Shown here piece after piece: positions 9,220 through 49,752 of a DNA stretch of 64,000 nucleotides. A model generated the notes under the pieces. It was not told where the DNA came from, made no database searches, and saw only the letters and a list, made by a program, of their open reading frames with translations. Origin of the DNA: a virus; the IMG/VR virus record IMGVR_UViG_3300019889_000007, positions 1 through 64,000 of that record. One strand, given 5' to 3'. The position numbers and the translations under genes are program-made. The first letter of the stretch is position 1. The number at the start of each line of letters is the position of its first letter.

Positions 9220-10119
9220 ATGATCACGTTCGTGTGGATTGGTGTGGATCGGACGTTCGAAGTGCGCACCGTACCCGCCGATGAACCAGTCGATGCTGTT
9301 GATGACATCGATCGTTGGTGGAATGAAGAGGTGTTCGGGTCGGGTGACCTGGAACCGCTGCCACCGAGCGACCCCGCCAAGGATTCCATTGTGAACAAAT
9401 TGGCGGCGGTCGTGACGGGCACGTGGGACAACCCGCGTCAAGGCGACCAGCTCTTGACCGGCCGCGACCCCGACAGCCCCGAAGCCATCGTGTCGGTGAC
9501 GCCCGATGTGGTGGCCAAGATTCGCCAGGCGGCGGCCATTTTGGGCTGGCGCGAGACAACGAGAGGACAACATATGGATGACACCGTGTACATGGTGATC
9601 GATGTGGAAACCAGCGGCACAGAGACCACGGACTCTGCTCTGCTGGAGGTGGCGTGCTGGGCGGTCGACGAAAACCTGGTGCGGTTGGACGAGAAGGGCT
9701 TCCACGCGGTCATCCATCACAACCGTGAGCTGGCCGATGTCGTGCGGAAGCAGGCCGTACCGGTTGTTCAGGACATGCACGACGCCAACGGCCTGTGGGC
9801 CAAACTGCCCAACGGGGTGCCGTTGGCCGAGGCGGAGGGAGCGCTATTGGCCTACATCAAGCAGTTCGCGCCACGACCGCGTCAAGCCATGATTGTGGGT
9901 AACTCCCCGATACTGGATTCGAACTTCTTGAAAGCGTTCATGCCGAAAGTTCACGGCCACCTGCATTACCGCTTCATCGACGTTTCCACATTGGAACATG
10001 TTTCGGTCAAATGGCTGAAGGAAAAACCGTTCCATAAGGACGCGCAGCACACCGCCGACGGCGACGTCGCGCAGTGCGTGGCACAGCTGCGTCACCTACG
10101 CACAGTGATCAAACCGTAG
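9220..10119 (+). CDS. orn: Oligoribonuclease-like DEDDh exoribonuclease (core from ATG 9574) with an in-frame N-terminal DUF3846-like segment
   Basis: VIDVETSG, VQDMHDANGL, VGNSPILDSNFL, LHYRFIDVSTL, HTADGDV match Orn motifs; RBS GAGAGGA precedes ATG 9574. Confidence 0.85.
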   Translation: MITFVWIGVDRTFEVRTVPADEPVDAVDDIDRWWNEEVFGSGDLEPLPPSDPAKDSIVNKLAAVVTGTWDNPRQGDQLLTGRDPDSPEAIVSVTPDVVAKIRQAAAILGWRETTRGQHMDDTVYMVIDVETSGTETTDSALLEVACWAVDENLVRLDEKGFHAVIHHNRELADVVRKQAVPVVQDMHDANGLWAKLPNGVPLAEAEGALLAYIKQFAPRPRQAMIVGNSPILDSNFLKAFMPKVHGHLHYRFIDVSTLEHVSVKWLKEKPFHKDAQHTADGDVAQCVAQLRHLRTVIKP

Positions 10120-46921: not shown

Positions 46922-48577
46922 TCAGAACGGCCACACGGCGTCCTTACCACTCTCCAGGGCCGGGATCATTCCGAAGGCCGCATCGGAAAGTCCACCGAAA
47001 ACGTACCGGTTGGGCGTATCGGGTAGATGCCCGAACTTGTATCCGCCCAAGTTCCACGTGTAAATCGGGATGTTCGCGGGCACGACGTCGTCGATCTTCT
47101 TCGGGACGTCCATGACGACCCGGCCCATGTGGTCGAAACGTCGCCGCGTCTCGGCCCAGTACCGGCTGGCCACACTCAACGCCTGAGTCCACCCCGGATT
47201 GGTCTGCTCATCGGTGATGATGACGACCCGGTCATGCTTGTCATAGGTCATGACCACCGCCAGCTGCGTATCGGTACCGCCCATGTTGCTGAACTTGCCC
47301 ATCGTGCGCAGCACCGAGTCGCCACGGGTGAACGGGATACGTTGATGGGCCGTGCCGTACTGGTACAGGTCAGCCGCCTCGGCACGCAACGCGATCACCG
47401 ACCCGAACAGGCTGGCTTTCTCGTTCAGACCGAGCTGCTTATGGTTGCCGCCGTAGCCGTACGGGAACATCGAGCTGGACTGGTCCACAAGCACCAGGGT
47501 CCGGCCATCGAAAGCTGGCACGCTCGACACTGACACCGCCAGGGCTTTCTCCAGGTACTCGCCCCATCGCAGCGACCCGACGTTCTTGTGCGCCGAGTAG
47601 AACCGGAACGGCAGCTGCCGGGACCGTTTGATCTGATCGGCGCTGGCCAGGCGGTCCTGCACCTGCCGGATCGCGGCATCGGGGAGTCCGGCCTTGTCGA
47701 AGTTCGCGAGGTTACGGATGAGCGCCATGATCCCCATCGACGGGATCGTGGCTTCCCACATTTTCTTTTGGCTCGCACCGATTTGCCCGGCCATGGAAAT
47801 GGAGTCTTCCCACGTCAATCCGGCGTCTGCCAGTTTCGTCGACAGGGTTTGCACGGTGACGTTGTCGATGCCTTCGGCCAGGATCGCTTTACGGACGGCC
47901 CGGTTGGTCCACACCTGCCCCAGGATGCCCAACGGCACGGGAGTGTCAGGGTTGGACCGGTGCTTGGCAATGTACCGGAACAGGGACGACTGCTCTGCTG
48001 AGGCGGGTTTTGGGTGGACCAACGCGATGACGTCGGCGAACCGGAACGTGTTGTTCCGGGAGTCCCACTTCAAGAAGTTGAACTGCGTGTACAAGCGCCG
48101 GACGGCATCGGCGATACCGCGTTTGATCGGCTGCGGGATCTTGCGGCCGTACTTCGTTGTCCAGTACGCCAGGGCTTCAGCGGGCTCGTCAGCGCGCACT
48201 ATCACCGAATCGATGAGCTTTCGGCCGCCCGGCAGGCCCGCGATCCGCATCGCGTCGGCCGCCTCCACCGCACCCACCAACGACGCCGAACGCATGTTGG
48301 CCTTATTGCGTAGCCACGGTAGGAACCGGGCGATCCACTCCGGGTCCACCACGGCCACGGCCTGAATCAGATGCCGGTACCGGTTGTCACGATGATCGGC
48401 CGCCTCATAGAACGCTTCGGTGGACACCATGTTCGACACGGCCAACAGAAACAGTTCAGATCGGGGGTCCCGCGAATAGGCGGGCGCGTTGTGGAAGTTA
48501 CGGCCGTCGGCGACCGCCGATCCCCTGATCGGTGACTTCTGCCGGACGGCAGCGCTGGCGGTGTTGAACTTACCCAT
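46922..48577 (-). CDS. rsr: Ro60/Rsr TROVE-domain RNA-binding protein with vWA domain
   Basis: SELFLLAVSNMV..FYE, NMRS, RADEPAE, KRGIADAV, MALIRNL, RQLPFRFYSA; vWA MIDAS LVDQSSSM, GGTD, ITDEQ. Confidence 0.95.
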   Translation of the reverse strand: MGKFNTASAAVRQKSPIRGSAVADGRNFHNAPAYSRDPRSELFLLAVSNMVSTEAFYEAADHRDNRYRHLIQAVAVVDPEWIARFLPWLRNKANMRSASLVGAVEAADAMRIAGLPGGRKLIDSVIVRADEPAEALAYWTTKYGRKIPQPIKRGIADAVRRLYTQFNFLKWDSRNNTFRFADVIALVHPKPASAEQSSLFRYIAKHRSNPDTPVPLGILGQVWTNRAVRKAILAEGIDNVTVQTLSTKLADAGLTWEDSISMAGQIGASQKKMWEATIPSMGIMALIRNLANFDKAGLPDAAIRQVQDRLASADQIKRSRQLPFRFYSAHKNVGSLRWGEYLEKALAVSVSSVPAFDGRTLVLVDQSSSMFPYGYGGNHKQLGLNEKASLFGSVIALRAEAADLYQYGTAHQRIPFTRGDSVLRTMGKFSNMGGTDTQLAVVMTYDKHDRVVIITDEQTNPGWTQALSVASRYWAETRRRFDHMGRVVMDVPKKIDDVVPANIPIYTWNLGGYKFGHLPDTPNRYVFGGLSDAAFGMIPALESGKDAVWPF

Positions 48578-48606: not shown

Positions 48607-48780
48607 GTGCGGCATGAGCCGTCAGGGATCTGAGAAAAAATTGACCGGAGACACGAACCGCTCTGCCGCTGAGCTAACTGACGCTTACACGAAAGTCTTG
48701 GATTCGAACCAAGGACCTGTCTCTTGAAAGGAGAAGTAGCTCCGGTCGTCGCACCAGTGCCCTGACGGCACAAGCCGCAC
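48607..48780 (-). ncRNA. YrlA-like Y RNA copy 3 (class I tRNA mimic with a UUC anticodon-like loop)
   Basis: Minus strand: closing stems; GGTGCGA..GACCGGAG-CTACTTC; hairpin TCTC-CTTTCAA-GAGA; AGGTC; T arm CTTGG-TTCGAAT-CCAAG; imperfect closed acceptor hairpin; D arm TAGCTCAGCGGCAGAGC; CTCCGGTC-AATTTTTTCT. Confidence 0.85.
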
Positions 48781-48935
48781 ATCCCGAGAAAAAAGTTGCC
48801 GGAGAACACGGTGGCTTTGGCCGCTCGCCCACACCGGCCTGTTACGGACCGGCGGCAGGATTCGAACCTACGAGACCTTTAGGGTCACCCATTTGTCAAG
48901 AATGAAGTAACTCCAGCTATCGCACCGGGATGTGC
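48777..48935 (-). ncRNA. YrlA-like Y RNA copy 2 (class II, Ser-like mimic)
   Basis: Stem GCACATCCCG/CGGGATGTGC; GGTGCGA..AGCTGGAG-TTACTTC; TCATT-CTTGACA-AATGG; variable arm GACC-CTAAA-GGTC; T arm GTAGG-TTCGAAT-CCTGC; acceptor hairpin CGCCGGTC/GGCCGGTG; D arm TGGGCGAGCGGCCAAAGCC. Confidence 0.85.
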
Positions 48936-48994: not shown

Positions 48995-49150
48995 GTCGCG
49001 CCCACCGAGAAAAGAGAATCGACCGGAGTTGAGAAACTTGCTAGCGGCCTGCCAATTAACCGACAGTAGACTCGCGAAGGGTCTACCGGCAGGACTCGAA
49101 CCTGCACAACCAACGGAAGTAACCCCAGCCTTCACACCGGCGAACACGAC
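48995..49150 (-). ncRNA. YrlA-like Y RNA copy 1 (Gln-like mimic)
   Basis: Stem GTCGTGTTCGCCG/CGGTGGGCGCGAC; GGTGTGA..GGCTGGGGTT-ACTTC; T arm GCAGG-TTCGAGT-CCTGC; acceptor hairpin CGGTAGAC/GTCTACTG; D arm TCGGTTAATTGGCAGGCC; AACTCCGGTC..TCTTTTCT. Confidence 0.85.
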
Positions 49151-49157
49151 AACACTC

Positions 49158-49186
49158 ATAGTAGCCATGTCGTGTCTGCCTGTCAG
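49158..49186 (-). promoter_or_regulatory. Sigma70/HrdB-type promoter for the Y RNA-Ro60 unit
   Basis: CTGACA-N17-TACTAT on the minus strand; the predicted start falls at about the 5' end of the first Y RNA. Confidence 0.7.
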
Positions 49187-49234
49187 CTAGCGGTCCGTTG
49201 CCACCCCAAGAACCGTTGATACGAAAGAGAACCC

Positions 49235-49752
49235 ATGAAACCTCGTCTGGCCGTGACCATATCGTCCTGACCGCGTTCCTGATCGCCTGTGGCGCACCCA
49301 ACCGCGACGTCAGAAACGAAGGCCCCCAAGCCACCGACCCTGCCGACACCTCCAGTGCCACCACGGCCGCCGCCGATACTGACGCGGCCCTCGGCGAAAC
49401 CCTCAACATCGACGAGGAAGCCCGCGTCACCGTCACCGAAGTCGACACGTCAGTGGAGTCGGACAACCAGTTCGATGAGCCTCGCTACGGTGGCTACGCC
49501 TCCGCCGCCGTCGAAGTCGAAGCACTCGAATCGATGCTGGTCACCGTGACCGACTTTAAACTGATCGCCAAAGACGGCACTGCCTACAAATCCATGCTGT
49601 TCGTATACGGGTTCGACGGAGTGCTCGAACATCAGACCATCAAAGCCGGGCAGAAAGCCTCGGGCCTGGTCATATTCGATGTCGACCCGAAAAACCTCGG
49701 CGACGGCGGCCAAATTGAATACGACGGCTCCGCGTACTGGAGCTTCAAATAA
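49235..49752 (+). pseudogene. DUF4352-like lipoprotein with a frameshifted signal peptide
   Basis: RBS and ATG at 49235 give MKPRLAVT; an extra AT at about 49259 separates it from IVLTAFLIAC; Ig-like body with AGQKASGLVIFDV. Confidence 0.6.

What the first reader, a model, noticed from the sequence alone, without database searches (positions are those of the whole stretch)
48777..48935. Y RNA copy with a class II long variable arm
A GACC-CTAAA-GGTC hairpin sits between the anticodon-like hairpin and the T arm, alongside a Ser/Tyr-type D loop. This suggests capture of a real class II tRNA gene into the Y RNA scaffold rather than drift from a sister copy. SerRS recognises the long variable arm (established), but the acceptor is closed by a loop, so the intact RNA could bind yet not be charged. 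Position 37 is C where tRNAs have a purine, which may reduce cleavage or modification. Alternatively, cutting the acceptor loop might yield a permuted tRNA.
Basis: partly seen in the sequence, partly recalled or inferred. Interest (0 to 1): 0.7.

Follow-up and report, generated by a model that had tools for sequence, protein, structure and literature searches.

The report
Phage Y RNA mimicking class-II tRNA
One of three small Ro60-partner RNAs (Y RNAs) encoded just upstream of a soil phage's Ro60 gene has a tRNA-shaped head carrying the extra arm and D-loop typical of tyrosine/serine tRNAs; it is a rare variant of a known RNA family, and I found no evidence that it is a freshly captured tRNA gene.

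Summary
On the minus strand, 48777-48935 is the middle of three tandem YrlA-type Y RNAs, 200 nt upstream of rsr (TROVE). It holds, in order:
- a Ro-binding-type scaffold;
- a 5-bp/7-nt-loop hairpin (CUUGACA);
- a GACC-CUAAA-GGUC hairpin;
- a T arm;
- an acceptor stem closed by CGUAACA;
- U8 and a 3-bp D arm whose loop is identical to Streptomyces tRNA-Tyr and one base from tRNA-Ser(UGA).

A covariance model built from 44 related YrlAs finds all three copies and nothing else significant. In copy 2 the extra hairpin aligns as a 14-nt insertion.

Among about 230 modules from 160 rsr loci, no other has both hairpins. However, tRNA-Leu-like YrlAs with covarying long variable arms recur in Streptomyces, and long class-II-like variable regions in YrlAs are already published.

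"Capture of a real tRNA" is not shown:
- No donor was found in 50,697 phages or 301 actinobacterial genomes.
- Overall identity is highest to tRNA-Tyr (70%).
- Across the family, anticodon-like triplets do not match D-arm type.

An alternative fold without the anticodon-like hairpin is equally stable. The scan has noted anticodon-arm-retaining YrlA-like RNAs before, on other DNA. Verdict: a new variant of a known kind.

The parts
48777..48935 (-). Y RNA copy 2 (YrlA-type), the finding
   Evidence: Model R1, built from 44 YrlAs of other genomes, hits 48778-48933 at 42.4 bits, E 3e-8, model positions 1-143. Sequence read.
48917..48935 (-). 5' scaffold strand: basal stem strand GCACAUCCCG (48926-48935) and Ro-binding-type motif GGUGCGAUAG (48917-48926)
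   Evidence: Aligns to the nearly invariant CCCGGUGCG block of the family. The basal helix pairs with 48777-48786.
48799..48804 (-). 3' strand CUCCGG of the upper scaffold helix, pairing with CUGGAG at 48911-48916
   Evidence: Present in the MFE and centroid folds. The corresponding family helix covaries (helices 2-3).
48889..48905 (-). Anticodon-arm-like hairpin UCAUU-CUUGACA-AAUGG (triplet UGA at 48896-48898, C37 at 48895)
   Evidence: Pair probability is only 0.15-0.25. An alternative pairing of AUGG with CCGU (48808-48811) is equally stable.
48874..48886 (-). Extra hairpin GACC-CUAAA-GGUC, a class-II-style variable arm
   Evidence: Pair probability 0.81-0.85. It is a 14-nt insertion relative to the family model. 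The variable region is 17 nt.
48855..48871 (-). T arm GUAGG-UUCGAAU-CCUGC
48832..48854 (-). Acceptor stem (7-8 bp) closed by loop CGUAACA (48840-48846)
   Evidence: Pair probability up to 1.0. The family acceptor helix has compensatory changes at 7 of 7 pairs.
48813..48831 (-). U8-G9 and D arm GGC-GAGCGGCCAAA-GCC (3-bp stem, Ser/Tyr/Cys-type loop)
   Evidence: The loop is identical to Streptomyces tRNA-Tyr and 10 of 11 to tRNA-Ser(tga). The 5' half is 22 of 27 identical to tRNA-Tyr.
48624..48762 (-). Y RNA copy 3 (class-I head; loop CUUUCAA)
   Evidence: R1 72.8 bits, E 2.4e-15. Rfam YrlA 24.2 bits.
48999..49145 (-). Y RNA copy 1 (no anticodon-like hairpin; 10-nt variable region)
   Evidence: R1 56.1 bits, E 1.9e-11. 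Rfam YrlA 18.1 bits.
46922..48577 (-). rsr (Ro60 ortholog, 551 aa)
   Evidence: Pfam TROVE, E 2.6e-15. 2506 homologues at E <= 1e-30, best 54% identity.
49158..49186 (-). Promoter-like site CTGACA-17-TACTAT just upstream of copy 1
   Evidence: The only hit in the 1.1-kb scan; shuffles give a mean of 0.2. This is a consensus match only.

Best explanation
Copy 2 is a member of the actinobacterial/actinophage YrlA family of Y RNAs, the non-coding partners of the Ro60 protein Rsr. It is probably transcribed together with two sister Y RNAs and rsr.

Its 5'/3' scaffold carries the Rsr-binding-type strand. Its distal end folds into a circularly permuted tRNA: T arm, then loop-closed acceptor, then D arm. 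Here that head has the shape of a class II tRNA of the Tyr/Ser type, with a 3-bp D stem, a GAGCGGCCAAA D loop and a 4-bp/5-nt-loop variable arm.

The head most likely serves, as proposed for YrlAs in general, as a handle that brings a tRNA-binding protein to Rsr. The class-II shape would bias that handle toward proteins that read the long variable arm or the elbow of Tyr/Ser/Leu tRNAs.

By analogy with M. smegmatis YrlA, the 7-8-bp acceptor stem makes it a likely RNase P substrate. Cleavage would be at the CGUAACA loop, followed by CCA completion, giving a two-piece RNA.

What is shown: family membership, anatomy and genomic context. What is inferred: Rsr binding, processing and the partner protein.

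The class-II features most likely arose inside the YrlA lineage, by a 13-14-nt insertion plus D-arm remodelling or by exchange with another YrlA or tRNA. A recent, traceable tRNA capture is less likely.
For: - Context: the three copies lie 45-570 nt upstream of rsr on the same strand, with one promoter-like site upstream of copy 1.
- Membership: model R1, built from 44 YrlAs of other genomes, gives only three significant hits in the 64-kb window, namely the three copies. Copy 2 scores 42.4 bits, E 3e-8, over the full length.
- The family structure is strongly covarying: 94% of cells paired, 24 of 38 pairs with double-sided changes, 0 of 500 shuffles as good.
- The tRNA core nucleotides are present in the permuted reading: U8, A14, G15 with C48, G18 G19, G53:C61 and the UUCGAAU T loop.
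- Class-II character: the D loop is identical to tRNA-Tyr. The extra hairpin has pair probability 0.81-0.85. The de-permuted RNA is called tRNA-Ser(tga) by ARAGORN. By alignment score its best matches are class II: Tyr, then Ser(tga), then Leu.
- Class-II mimicry by YrlAs is real elsewhere. Streptomyces-type YrlAs with a tRNA-Leu D arm carry variable-arm hairpins with at least five different compensating stems.
- Literature: YrlAs mimic tRNA and are modified by tRNA enzymes. M. smegmatis YrlA is cut by RNase P and gets CCA in vivo (PMC4201824). Many YrlAs have long class-II-like variable regions (10.1101/312249).
Against: - Rfam's YrlA model (RF02553) does not detect copy 2 at all, and scores copies 1 and 3 far below its gathering score.
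- No close relative exists (best Rsr identity 54%). The extra hairpin therefore has no covariation support, and copy 2 could be a one-off.
- Plain thermodynamics does not favour the cloverleaf: -50.0 against an MFE of -63.2 kcal/mol, with D-arm pair probability 0. This is common for tRNAs, which depend on tertiary contacts.
- There is no RNA data: only soil-metagenome DNA holds the sequence.
- The partner protein of any YrlA head is unknown in the literature.
Confidence: 0.7

Rival explanations
1. Recent capture: a real class II tRNA gene (Ser or Tyr), or a tandem pair of them, recombined into a pre-existing Y RNA scaffold and replaced the head of a sister copy.
For: - The scaffolds of the three copies are more alike (63-78%) than their acceptor+D parts (47-56%). 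They also share a lineage-specific 3' strand, CUCCGG..UUUUUCUC.
- The D loop is identical to tRNA-Tyr.
- The de-permuted body is 70% identical to Streptomyces tRNA-Tyr. That equals the mean for same-isotype tRNA pairs (0.70) and exceeds every pair of different class II isotypes (maximum 0.69).
- Related actinophage rsr genes sit inside tRNA gene arrays, which gives opportunity for exchange.
Against: - No donor was found. BLASTN against phages gave a best E of 4. In 301 actinobacterial genomes the best hit was E 2e-5, and the six of the best twelve matches that I opened were coding sequence or a tRNA-Arg.
- The triplet (Ser) and the body (Tyr-like) disagree.
- The acceptor strand GCCGGUG is the commonest YrlA acceptor (31 of 175 modules), not a Ser or Tyr signature.
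- The same D-arm type occurs in seven other YrlA modules without a long arm.
- Scaffold conservation can be explained by Rsr-binding constraint.
Confidence: 0.2
2. A working tRNA-Ser(UGA) gene in normal gene order, as ARAGORN calls it at 48846-48929, with the Y-RNA resemblance incidental.
For: ARAGORN predicts a full cloverleaf in native order, using CCCGGUG of the scaffold as the acceptor 5' strand: 6 of 7 pairs, a 5-bp anticodon stem, a variable arm and a T arm.
Against: - The native-order form has C instead of U8, a 4-nt D loop, a C1-U72 mismatch and C37.
- In Rfam's tRNA clan the best match at this place is tRNA-Sec, at 20.9 bits against a gathering score of 47. The phage's real tRNAs score 64-65 bits on the tRNA model.
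- ARAGORN makes the same kind of call inside 37 related Y RNA modules, so it is a family artefact or relic.
- That fold alone is worth only -19.2 kcal/mol.
Confidence: 0.03
3. The extra hairpin is a neutral or degenerative insertion in a redundant third Y RNA copy, with no class-II-specific role.
For: - It is a single instance among about 230 modules.
- It has no covariation support.
- The stem is only 4 bp.
- C37 and the Ser-versus-Tyr mismatch argue against precise mimicry.
- The triplet/D-arm concordance test across the family is negative.
Against: - The insertion is a perfect hairpin placed exactly where class II tRNAs carry theirs. It is coupled with a D arm of the type that accompanies long arms in Tyr/Ser, and the Levitt partners G15/C48 are kept.
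- In Leu-type YrlAs the same coupling of a class-II D arm with a long arm is recurrent and covarying.
- The rest of copy 2 is intact.
Confidence: 0.2
4. Isotype-specific decoy or two-piece chargeable mimic. After RNase P opens the acceptor loop, the Ro-tethered RNA presents a class II tRNA with an anticodon arm. It then titrates a synthetase or a host anticodon nuclease, or is itself aminoacylated.
For: - There is a precedent for cleavage plus CCA addition in M. smegmatis YrlA.
- Position 74 is C in copy 2 and in 93 of 175 modules, the same layout as the M. smegmatis case where only CA is added.
- The three copies display three different heads.
Against: - All of it is inference.
- The anticodon-like hairpin is not the only possible fold.
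- Anticodon-like triplets do not match head type across the family.
- By my own knowledge of E. coli tRNA-Ser identity elements, which was not tested here, the acceptor pairs (G1-U72, C2-G71) and C73 do not look like tRNA-Ser.
- No RtcB or CCA-adding enzyme is found in the record.
Confidence: 0.1

Closest known systems
Mycobacterium smegmatis YrlA (Chen et al. 2014, PMC4201824)
   Same: - An actinobacterial-type Y RNA upstream of rsr.
- Same order of scaffold, hairpin, T arm, closed ~7-bp acceptor and D arm.
- Several Y RNAs made from one precursor.
- Cut by RNase P in the acceptor loop and CCA-completed in vivo.
   Different: - Copy 2 has a second hairpin (13 nt) before the T arm.
- Copy 2 has a 3-bp Ser/Tyr-type D arm instead of the near-invariant GCUC/GAGC class-I D arm.
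- Processing of copy 2 is untested.
Salmonella Typhimurium YrlA, Rfam RF02553, crystal structure 6CU1 (Wang et al. 2018, 10.1101/312249)
   Same: A tRNA-like L-shape built from T arm, closed acceptor and D arm, with the scaffold continuing from the anticodon-stem position. The authors note that many YrlAs have long variable regions like class II tRNAs.
   Different: - The Rfam model does not detect copy 2.
- The Salmonella RNA has a short variable loop and a 6-bp acceptor that is not cut by RNase P.
- The class-II-type D arm is not described there.
Streptomyces-type YrlAs with a tRNA-Leu-like head
   Same: They are rsr-proximal YrlAs whose D arm copies a class II tRNA (GCG-GAAnGGnAGAC-GCG). 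They carry a long variable-arm hairpin directly before the T stem, and the arm covaries.
   Different: - They are Leu-type, not Tyr/Ser-type.
- They have no anticodon-like hairpin. The strand before the arm pairs with the strand after the D arm (5-6 bp).
- They are recurrent in many genomes, whereas copy 2 is a single case.
Bacterial class II tRNAs (tRNA-Tyr, tRNA-Ser) of Streptomyces
   Same: - D loop GAGCGGCCAAA (Tyr) or GAGCGGCCUAA (Ser-tga).
- A 3-bp D stem, a long variable arm and the canonical T loop.
- 70% overall identity to tRNA-Tyr after de-permutation.
   Different: - Circularly permuted gene order.
- Acceptor closed by a loop.
- C at position 37.
- The triplet UGA does not fit the Tyr-like body.
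- Embedded in a Ro-binding scaffold.
Thermus phage phiLo Yrl1/Yrl2 with phage Ro60 (PMC12135203)
   Same: A phage-encoded Ro60 with tandem Y-like RNAs immediately upstream. The RNAs bind the phage Ro60 and host PNPase in vitro.
   Different: Neither 'tRNA-like' nor 'anticodon' occurs in that paper's text. Its Ro60 is only 27% identical to this one.

Membership tests
YrlA-type bacterial/phage Y RNA | Encoded within a few kb of rsr/Ro60 on the same strand | tested here: met
   Copy 2 ends 200 nt upstream of the rsr start, on the same strand. rsr is a TROVE protein.
YrlA-type bacterial/phage Y RNA | Reaches the Rfam RF02553 gathering score (69 bits) | tested here: not met
   No RF02553 match for copy 2 at E <= 10. 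Copies 3 and 1 score 24.2 and 18.1 bits.
YrlA-type bacterial/phage Y RNA | Matches a covariance model of rsr-linked YrlAs of related actinobacteria and phages | tested here: met
   R1 (44 sequences, none from this genome): 42.4 bits, E 3e-8, model positions 1-143. Only the three copies are significant in 64 kb. The model's helices covary.
YrlA-type bacterial/phage Y RNA | Order: 5' scaffold strand, variable region, T arm, loop-closed acceptor stem, D arm, 3' scaffold strand | tested here: met
   Read directly from the sequence and from the alignment to the model.
YrlA-type bacterial/phage Y RNA | GNCGAA-type Ro60-binding motif on the 5' strand | tested here: inconclusive
   Copy 2 has GGUGCGAUAG (CGAU rather than CGAA). 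Relatives mostly have GGUGCGCAGG or GGUGCGAAGG. Binding was not tested.
YrlA-type bacterial/phage Y RNA | Bound by Rsr and modified or processed by tRNA enzymes | not testable with these tools
   No RNA-holding run was listed.
Class II tRNA (Tyr/Ser/Leu) | Stem-loop variable arm between the anticodon stem and the T stem | tested here: met
   GACC-CUAAA-GGUC in a 17-nt variable region, pair probability 0.81-0.85. No covariation test is possible.
Class II tRNA (Tyr/Ser/Leu) | 3-bp D stem with a Ser/Tyr-type D loop | tested here: met
   The loop is identical to Streptomyces tRNA-Tyr and 10 of 11 to tRNA-Ser(tga). A similar type also occurs in tRNA-Cys.
Class II tRNA (Tyr/Ser/Leu) | Free acceptor ends in normal 5'-to-3' order, detectable by a tRNA covariance model | tested here: not met
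   The acceptor is closed by CGUAACA. The only match in Rfam's tRNA clan is tRNA-Sec at 20.9 bits, against a gathering score of 47.
Class II tRNA (Tyr/Ser/Leu) | Anticodon loop with U33 and a purine at 37, and an anticodon that fits the body | tested here: not met
   The loop is CUUGACA: U33 is present but position 37 is C. The triplet UGA means Ser, whereas the body is closest to Tyr.
Class II tRNA (Tyr/Ser/Leu) | Closer in sequence to Ser/Tyr tRNAs than to other tRNAs | tested here: inconclusive
   Tyr is clearly first (score 76; 58 of 78). Ser(tga) at 64 is barely above the best class-I tRNA at 60. Normalised identity to Tyr is 0.70, with tRNA-Pro and tRNA-Leu next at 0.66.

The most novel reading that the evidence does not exclude
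The three-copy array is a set of differently shaped tRNA baits on one Ro60 platform. Copy 2, once RNase P opens its acceptor loop and CCA is completed as in M. smegmatis YrlA, becomes a two-piece class II tRNA look-alike with an anticodon arm. It would then be bound, or even charged, by TyrRS or SerRS, or it would soak up a host tRNA-cleaving defence nuclease during infection.
Probability: 0.1. Interest if true: 0.75.

Novelty: new variant of a known kind. Interest (0 to 1): 0.4.

Why it matters
The partner proteins of the tRNA-like heads of bacterial and phage Y RNAs are still unknown. Heads that copy particular tRNA classes narrow the candidates to proteins that read the long variable arm. 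The cases here are Tyr/Ser-like in this phage and Leu-like, recurrently, in Streptomyces. That makes pull-down and aminoacylation experiments straightforward to design.

The family-wide patterns seen on the way also bear on the published idea that YrlAs arose from tRNA dimers. These patterns are anticodon-arm-like hairpins, native-order cloverleaf remnants, and repetition of the acceptor strand in the scaffold. They also show that tRNA finders mis-call Y RNA halves as tRNA genes in phage annotations.

As a single, unconserved instance, the finding itself is of moderate interest.

Tried and rejected
The contig of the closest Rsr homologue (54% identity, P0001) could therefore not be fetched.
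- The search for related loci with the single Rsr protein found nothing in viral contigs.
- BLASTN of the 700-nt locus against phages gave no match. BLASTN of the 118-nt head gave a best E of 4.
- A search of 301 actinobacterial genomes gave only weak hits. The six of the best twelve that I opened were coding DNA or a tRNA-Arg. That sample included eight genomes flagged unpublished: G007, G015, G024, G030, G032, G036, G043 and G263. Only the negative statement 'no close match in those searched' rests partly on them.
- Pattern scans for T loop plus Ser/Tyr-type D arm, and for scaffold plus long variable region in viral and metagenome contigs, gave no second RNA with both hairpins. These patterns need exact motifs, so sensitivity is limited.
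They were not run and I stopped that step.
- The genome search 'relatives' is not available for a virus record.
- No RNA holder was listed for the locus. Contigs of four soil-metagenome DNA runs show no variants.
- The hypothesis that anticodon-like triplets match D-arm isotype across the family was rejected: 14 concordant of 140 against 10.8 +/- 3.1 expected, P = 0.18.
- Neighbouring ORFs gave no informative Pfam or PHROG hits.
- No RtcB or CCA-adding enzyme domain was found in the 88.8-kb record.
- The Annual Review by Sim et al. 2020 and the supplements of Chen et al. 2014 are not held.
Full report
**What is there**

The window is the first 64 kb of an 88.8-kb IMG/VR virus record. The only public runs that hold the locus are soil-metagenome DNA. 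On the minus strand, ORF 46922-48577 encodes a 551-aa TROVE-domain protein, an Rsr/Ro60 ortholog. Its nearest homologues are at most 54% identical and mostly actinobacterial.

Immediately upstream, on the same strand, lie three tandem elements of about 140-160 nt:
- copy 1 at 48999-49145;
- copy 2 at 48777-48935, which is the finding;
- copy 3 at 48624-48762.

A single sigma-70-like site (CTGACA-17-TACTAT, 49186-49158) precedes copy 1.

**Checking the observation**

Reading 5' to 3', copy 2 has:
- a basal stem;
- the strand GGUGCGAUAG;
- helix CUGGAG/CUCCGG;
- the family-typical UUACUUC;
- hairpin UCAUU-CUUGACA-AAUGG;
- GU;
- hairpin GACC-CUAAA-GGUC;
- UC;
- T arm GUAGG-UUCGAAU-CCUGC;
- an 8-pair stem closed by CGUAACA;
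- UG;
- D arm GGC-GAGCGGCCAAA-GCC;
- the 3' scaffold strand.

In the permuted reading the tRNA core nucleotides are all there: U8, A14, G15 with C48, G18 G19, G53:C61.

ARAGORN calls tRNA-Ser(tga) at 48846-48929 in native order. When I rejoined the acceptor 5' strand and D arm in front of the rest, it called Ser(tga) in 21 variants.

The GACC/GGUC helix has pair probability 0.81-0.85 without constraints. The whole RNA folds better than all 200 shuffles.

**Is it a Y RNA?**

Rfam's YrlA model gives only sub-threshold hits to copies 3 and 1 (24.2 and 18.1 bits against a gathering score of 69) and none to copy 2.

I therefore collected 160 rsr loci: 80 actinobacterial genomes and 80 viral contigs. 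I parsed 231 scaffolded T-arm/closed-acceptor/D-arm modules upstream of rsr. I then aligned 44 diverse ones and built covariance model R1.

The modelled structure is strongly supported: 94% of cells are paired, 24 of 38 pairs show double-sided changes, and 0 of 500 shuffles do as well. All seven acceptor pairs are compensatory.

In the 64-kb window R1 has exactly three significant hits:

| Copy | Bits | E-value |
|---|---|---|
| 3 | 72.8 | 2.4e-15 |
| 1 | 56.1 | 1.9e-11 |
| 2 | 42.4 | 3e-8 |

Copy 2 matches end to end, and the GACC hairpin aligns as a 14-nt insertion just before the T arm.

R1 also finds two or three tandem YrlAs next to the Ro-like genes of cultured actinophages GiJojo, BRock, Atuin and Neville. 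Membership in the actinobacterial/actinophage YrlA family is therefore established by sequence and structure, although Rfam's threshold is not met.

**How unusual is the head?**

In the 231 modules the region between UACUUC and the T stem is 15-24 nt in 185 cases. Copy 2, at 33 nt, is the only one with two hairpins.

Further scans found no second example:
- viral contigs, for a T loop followed by a Ser/Tyr-type D arm;
- viral and metagenome contigs, for scaffold plus a long variable region.

These scans require exact motifs.

Class-II mimicry as such is not unique. Ten modules in the first set, plus several metagenome ones, have a D arm nearly identical to Streptomyces tRNA-Leu. Most of these carry a 24-29-nt region ending in a hairpin right at the T stem.

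The stems of those hairpins differ by compensating changes: CCUCU/AGGGG, GAGGG/CCCUC, GGGGG/CCCUC, CCCC/GGGG, CCGUA/UACGG and UACCU/AGGUG.

Wang et al. already remarked that many YrlAs have long variable regions like class II tRNAs (10.1101/312249).

**Ser, Tyr or neither?**

As a reference I fetched the places of all 75 tRNA-model matches in one Streptomyces genome; ARAGORN called 70 tRNA genes there and 46 in four actinophage loci, giving 116 reference tRNAs.

The D loop of copy 2 is identical to tRNA-Tyr and one base from tRNA-Ser(tga). tRNA-Cys has a similar type.

The 5' half, meaning the acceptor strand plus D arm, is 22 of 27 identical to tRNA-Tyr.

The whole de-permuted RNA is 70% identical to tRNA-Tyr. 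For comparison:
- same-isotype tRNA pairs average 0.70;
- different class II isotypes average 0.56, with a maximum of 0.69;
- tRNA-Pro and a phage tRNA-Leu come next for copy 2, at 0.66.

By alignment score the order is Tyr 76, Ser(tga) 64, Leu 63, and the best class-I tRNA 60.

The head is therefore class-II-like and closest to Tyr, while the loop triplet UGA would read Ser.

Seven other YrlA modules have the same D-arm type but no long arm. Three of them have loop CUGCAAA or CUCGCAA, which contain the Cys triplet GCA.

Across 140 modules with a 7-nt-loop hairpin, the triplet does not track the D-arm isotype: 14 concordant against 10.8 +/- 3.1 expected (P = 0.18). The Ser triplet on a class-II body could therefore be chance. 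By my arithmetic, 6 of 64 triplets read Ser and 14 of 64 read any class II isotype.

**Capture or in-family change?**

No donor was found:
- BLASTN of the head against 50,697 phage genomes gave a best E of 4.
- In 301 actinobacterial genomes the best match had E 2e-5. Six of the best twelve matches, when opened, were coding DNA or a tRNA-Arg.

The acceptor strand GCCGGUG is the commonest one among YrlAs (31 of 175).

The three copies share lineage-specific scaffold strands at 63-78% identity, while their acceptor+D parts are 47-56% identical. This is compatible with head exchange, but also with stronger constraint on the Rsr-binding scaffold. I rate capture as possible but unproven (0.2).

**The anticodon-like hairpin**

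Hairpins with a 7-nt loop are common in this family: 140 of 219 unique modules. In those loops C32 occurs in 56%, U33 in 58%, a purine at 37 in 85% and A38 in 62%. C37, as in copy 2, occurs in 12%.

ARAGORN calls a native-order tRNA inside 37 related modules, and in 150 of 231 after de-permutation.

In copy 2, however, AUGG of that hairpin can pair instead with CCGU after the D arm. This gives the canonical YrlA/Leu-type topology at the same energy (-50.4 vs -50.0 kcal/mol). The extra hairpin is a class-II variable arm in either fold. Whether an anticodon arm is displayed remains open.

**Mechanism**

Shown:
- family membership;
- position next to rsr;
- an intact tRNA core;
- the class-II shape.

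Inferred from the literature:
- Rsr binds the scaffold.
- The head recruits a tRNA-binding protein; the partner is unknown for all YrlAs (PMC4201824; 10.1101/312249).
- RNase P can open a 7-bp closed acceptor, with CCA completed afterwards, as in M. smegmatis YrlA in vivo.

In copy 2 the acceptor 3' strand is followed by C-C, so CA addition would complete CCA. C at that position occurs in 93 of 175 modules.

Binding or charging by TyrRS or SerRS, or a decoy role, is speculation. No RNA data exist.

**Verdict**

Copy 2 is a rare class-II (Tyr/Ser-like) variant of the known YrlA family. It is a single instance with no conservation evidence for the extra arm.

Earlier notes of this scan on the sister copies (e1-6107623, e1-6107624) agree with what I see. 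A YrlA-like RNA retaining an anticodon arm was noted before on other DNA (e1-5725019).

Noticed in passing
window 48624-48762 (-): The hairpin loop of Y RNA copy 3, CUUUCAA, is identical to the anticodon loop of Streptomyces tRNA-Glu(ttc), but its D arm is a generic class-I type. Its closed acceptor has two internal mismatches.
   Followed up: partly
window 48999-49145 (-): Y RNA copy 1 has only 10 nt between UUACUUC and the T arm, so it has no anticodon-like hairpin. Its acceptor hairpin is longer.
   Followed up: partly
L028:1319-1418, L063:1320-1418, L073:1318-1418, L076:1319-1418, L078:1323-1419, L332, L333, L336, L348: The rsr-proximal YrlAs of Streptomyces-type genomes have a tRNA-Leu-like D arm and a covarying long variable arm. 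This is a recurrent class-II (Leu) tRNA mimic that I did not find described as such.
   Followed up: partly
L002:2263-2412 (Streptomyces phage GiJojo PP725410.1); L005:2006-2137 and 2228-2378 (Gordonia phage Neville): The annotated tRNA-Arg(cct) of GiJojo (record 9796-9870) lies inside a full-length YrlA hit (59.7 bits), so it is probably half of a Y RNA. In Neville the YrlA hits overlap three small annotated hypothetical CDSs (genes 88-90).
   Followed up: partly
L003:4399-4832 (Arthrobacter phage Atuin): Three tandem YrlAs lie downstream of the Ro-like gene, inside a large tRNA gene array. In GiJojo and BRock the Ro-like gene also sits within a tRNA array.
   Followed up: no
175 modules of L006-L165 and the window: The scaffold 5' heptamer (mostly CCCGGUG) nearly repeats the commonest acceptor 5' strand (GCCGGUG). 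It can pair with the acceptor 3' strand at 5 or more of 7 positions in 82 of 175 modules, against about 23 expected. This fits a tRNA-dimer origin or an alternative fold. The scaffold strand itself does not covary with the acceptor.
   Followed up: partly
L002:4359-4562: Two adjacent ordinary tRNA genes (Ala, Lys) score 36 bits on the YrlA model. The T arm of one tRNA plus the D arm of the next imitates the permuted layout.
   Followed up: no
window 49198-49752 (+): A divergently oriented ORF next to the Y RNA array has DUF4352/DUF1942 domains (Pfam E about 1e-6) and matches phrog_806, of unknown function.
   Followed up: no
L041:1-1000 (Catelliglobosispora koreensis) and L066: Long arrays of ordinary tRNA genes (7-12) lie directly upstream of the rsr/YrlA locus on bacterial contigs. 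These may be prophage tRNA islands.
   Followed up: no
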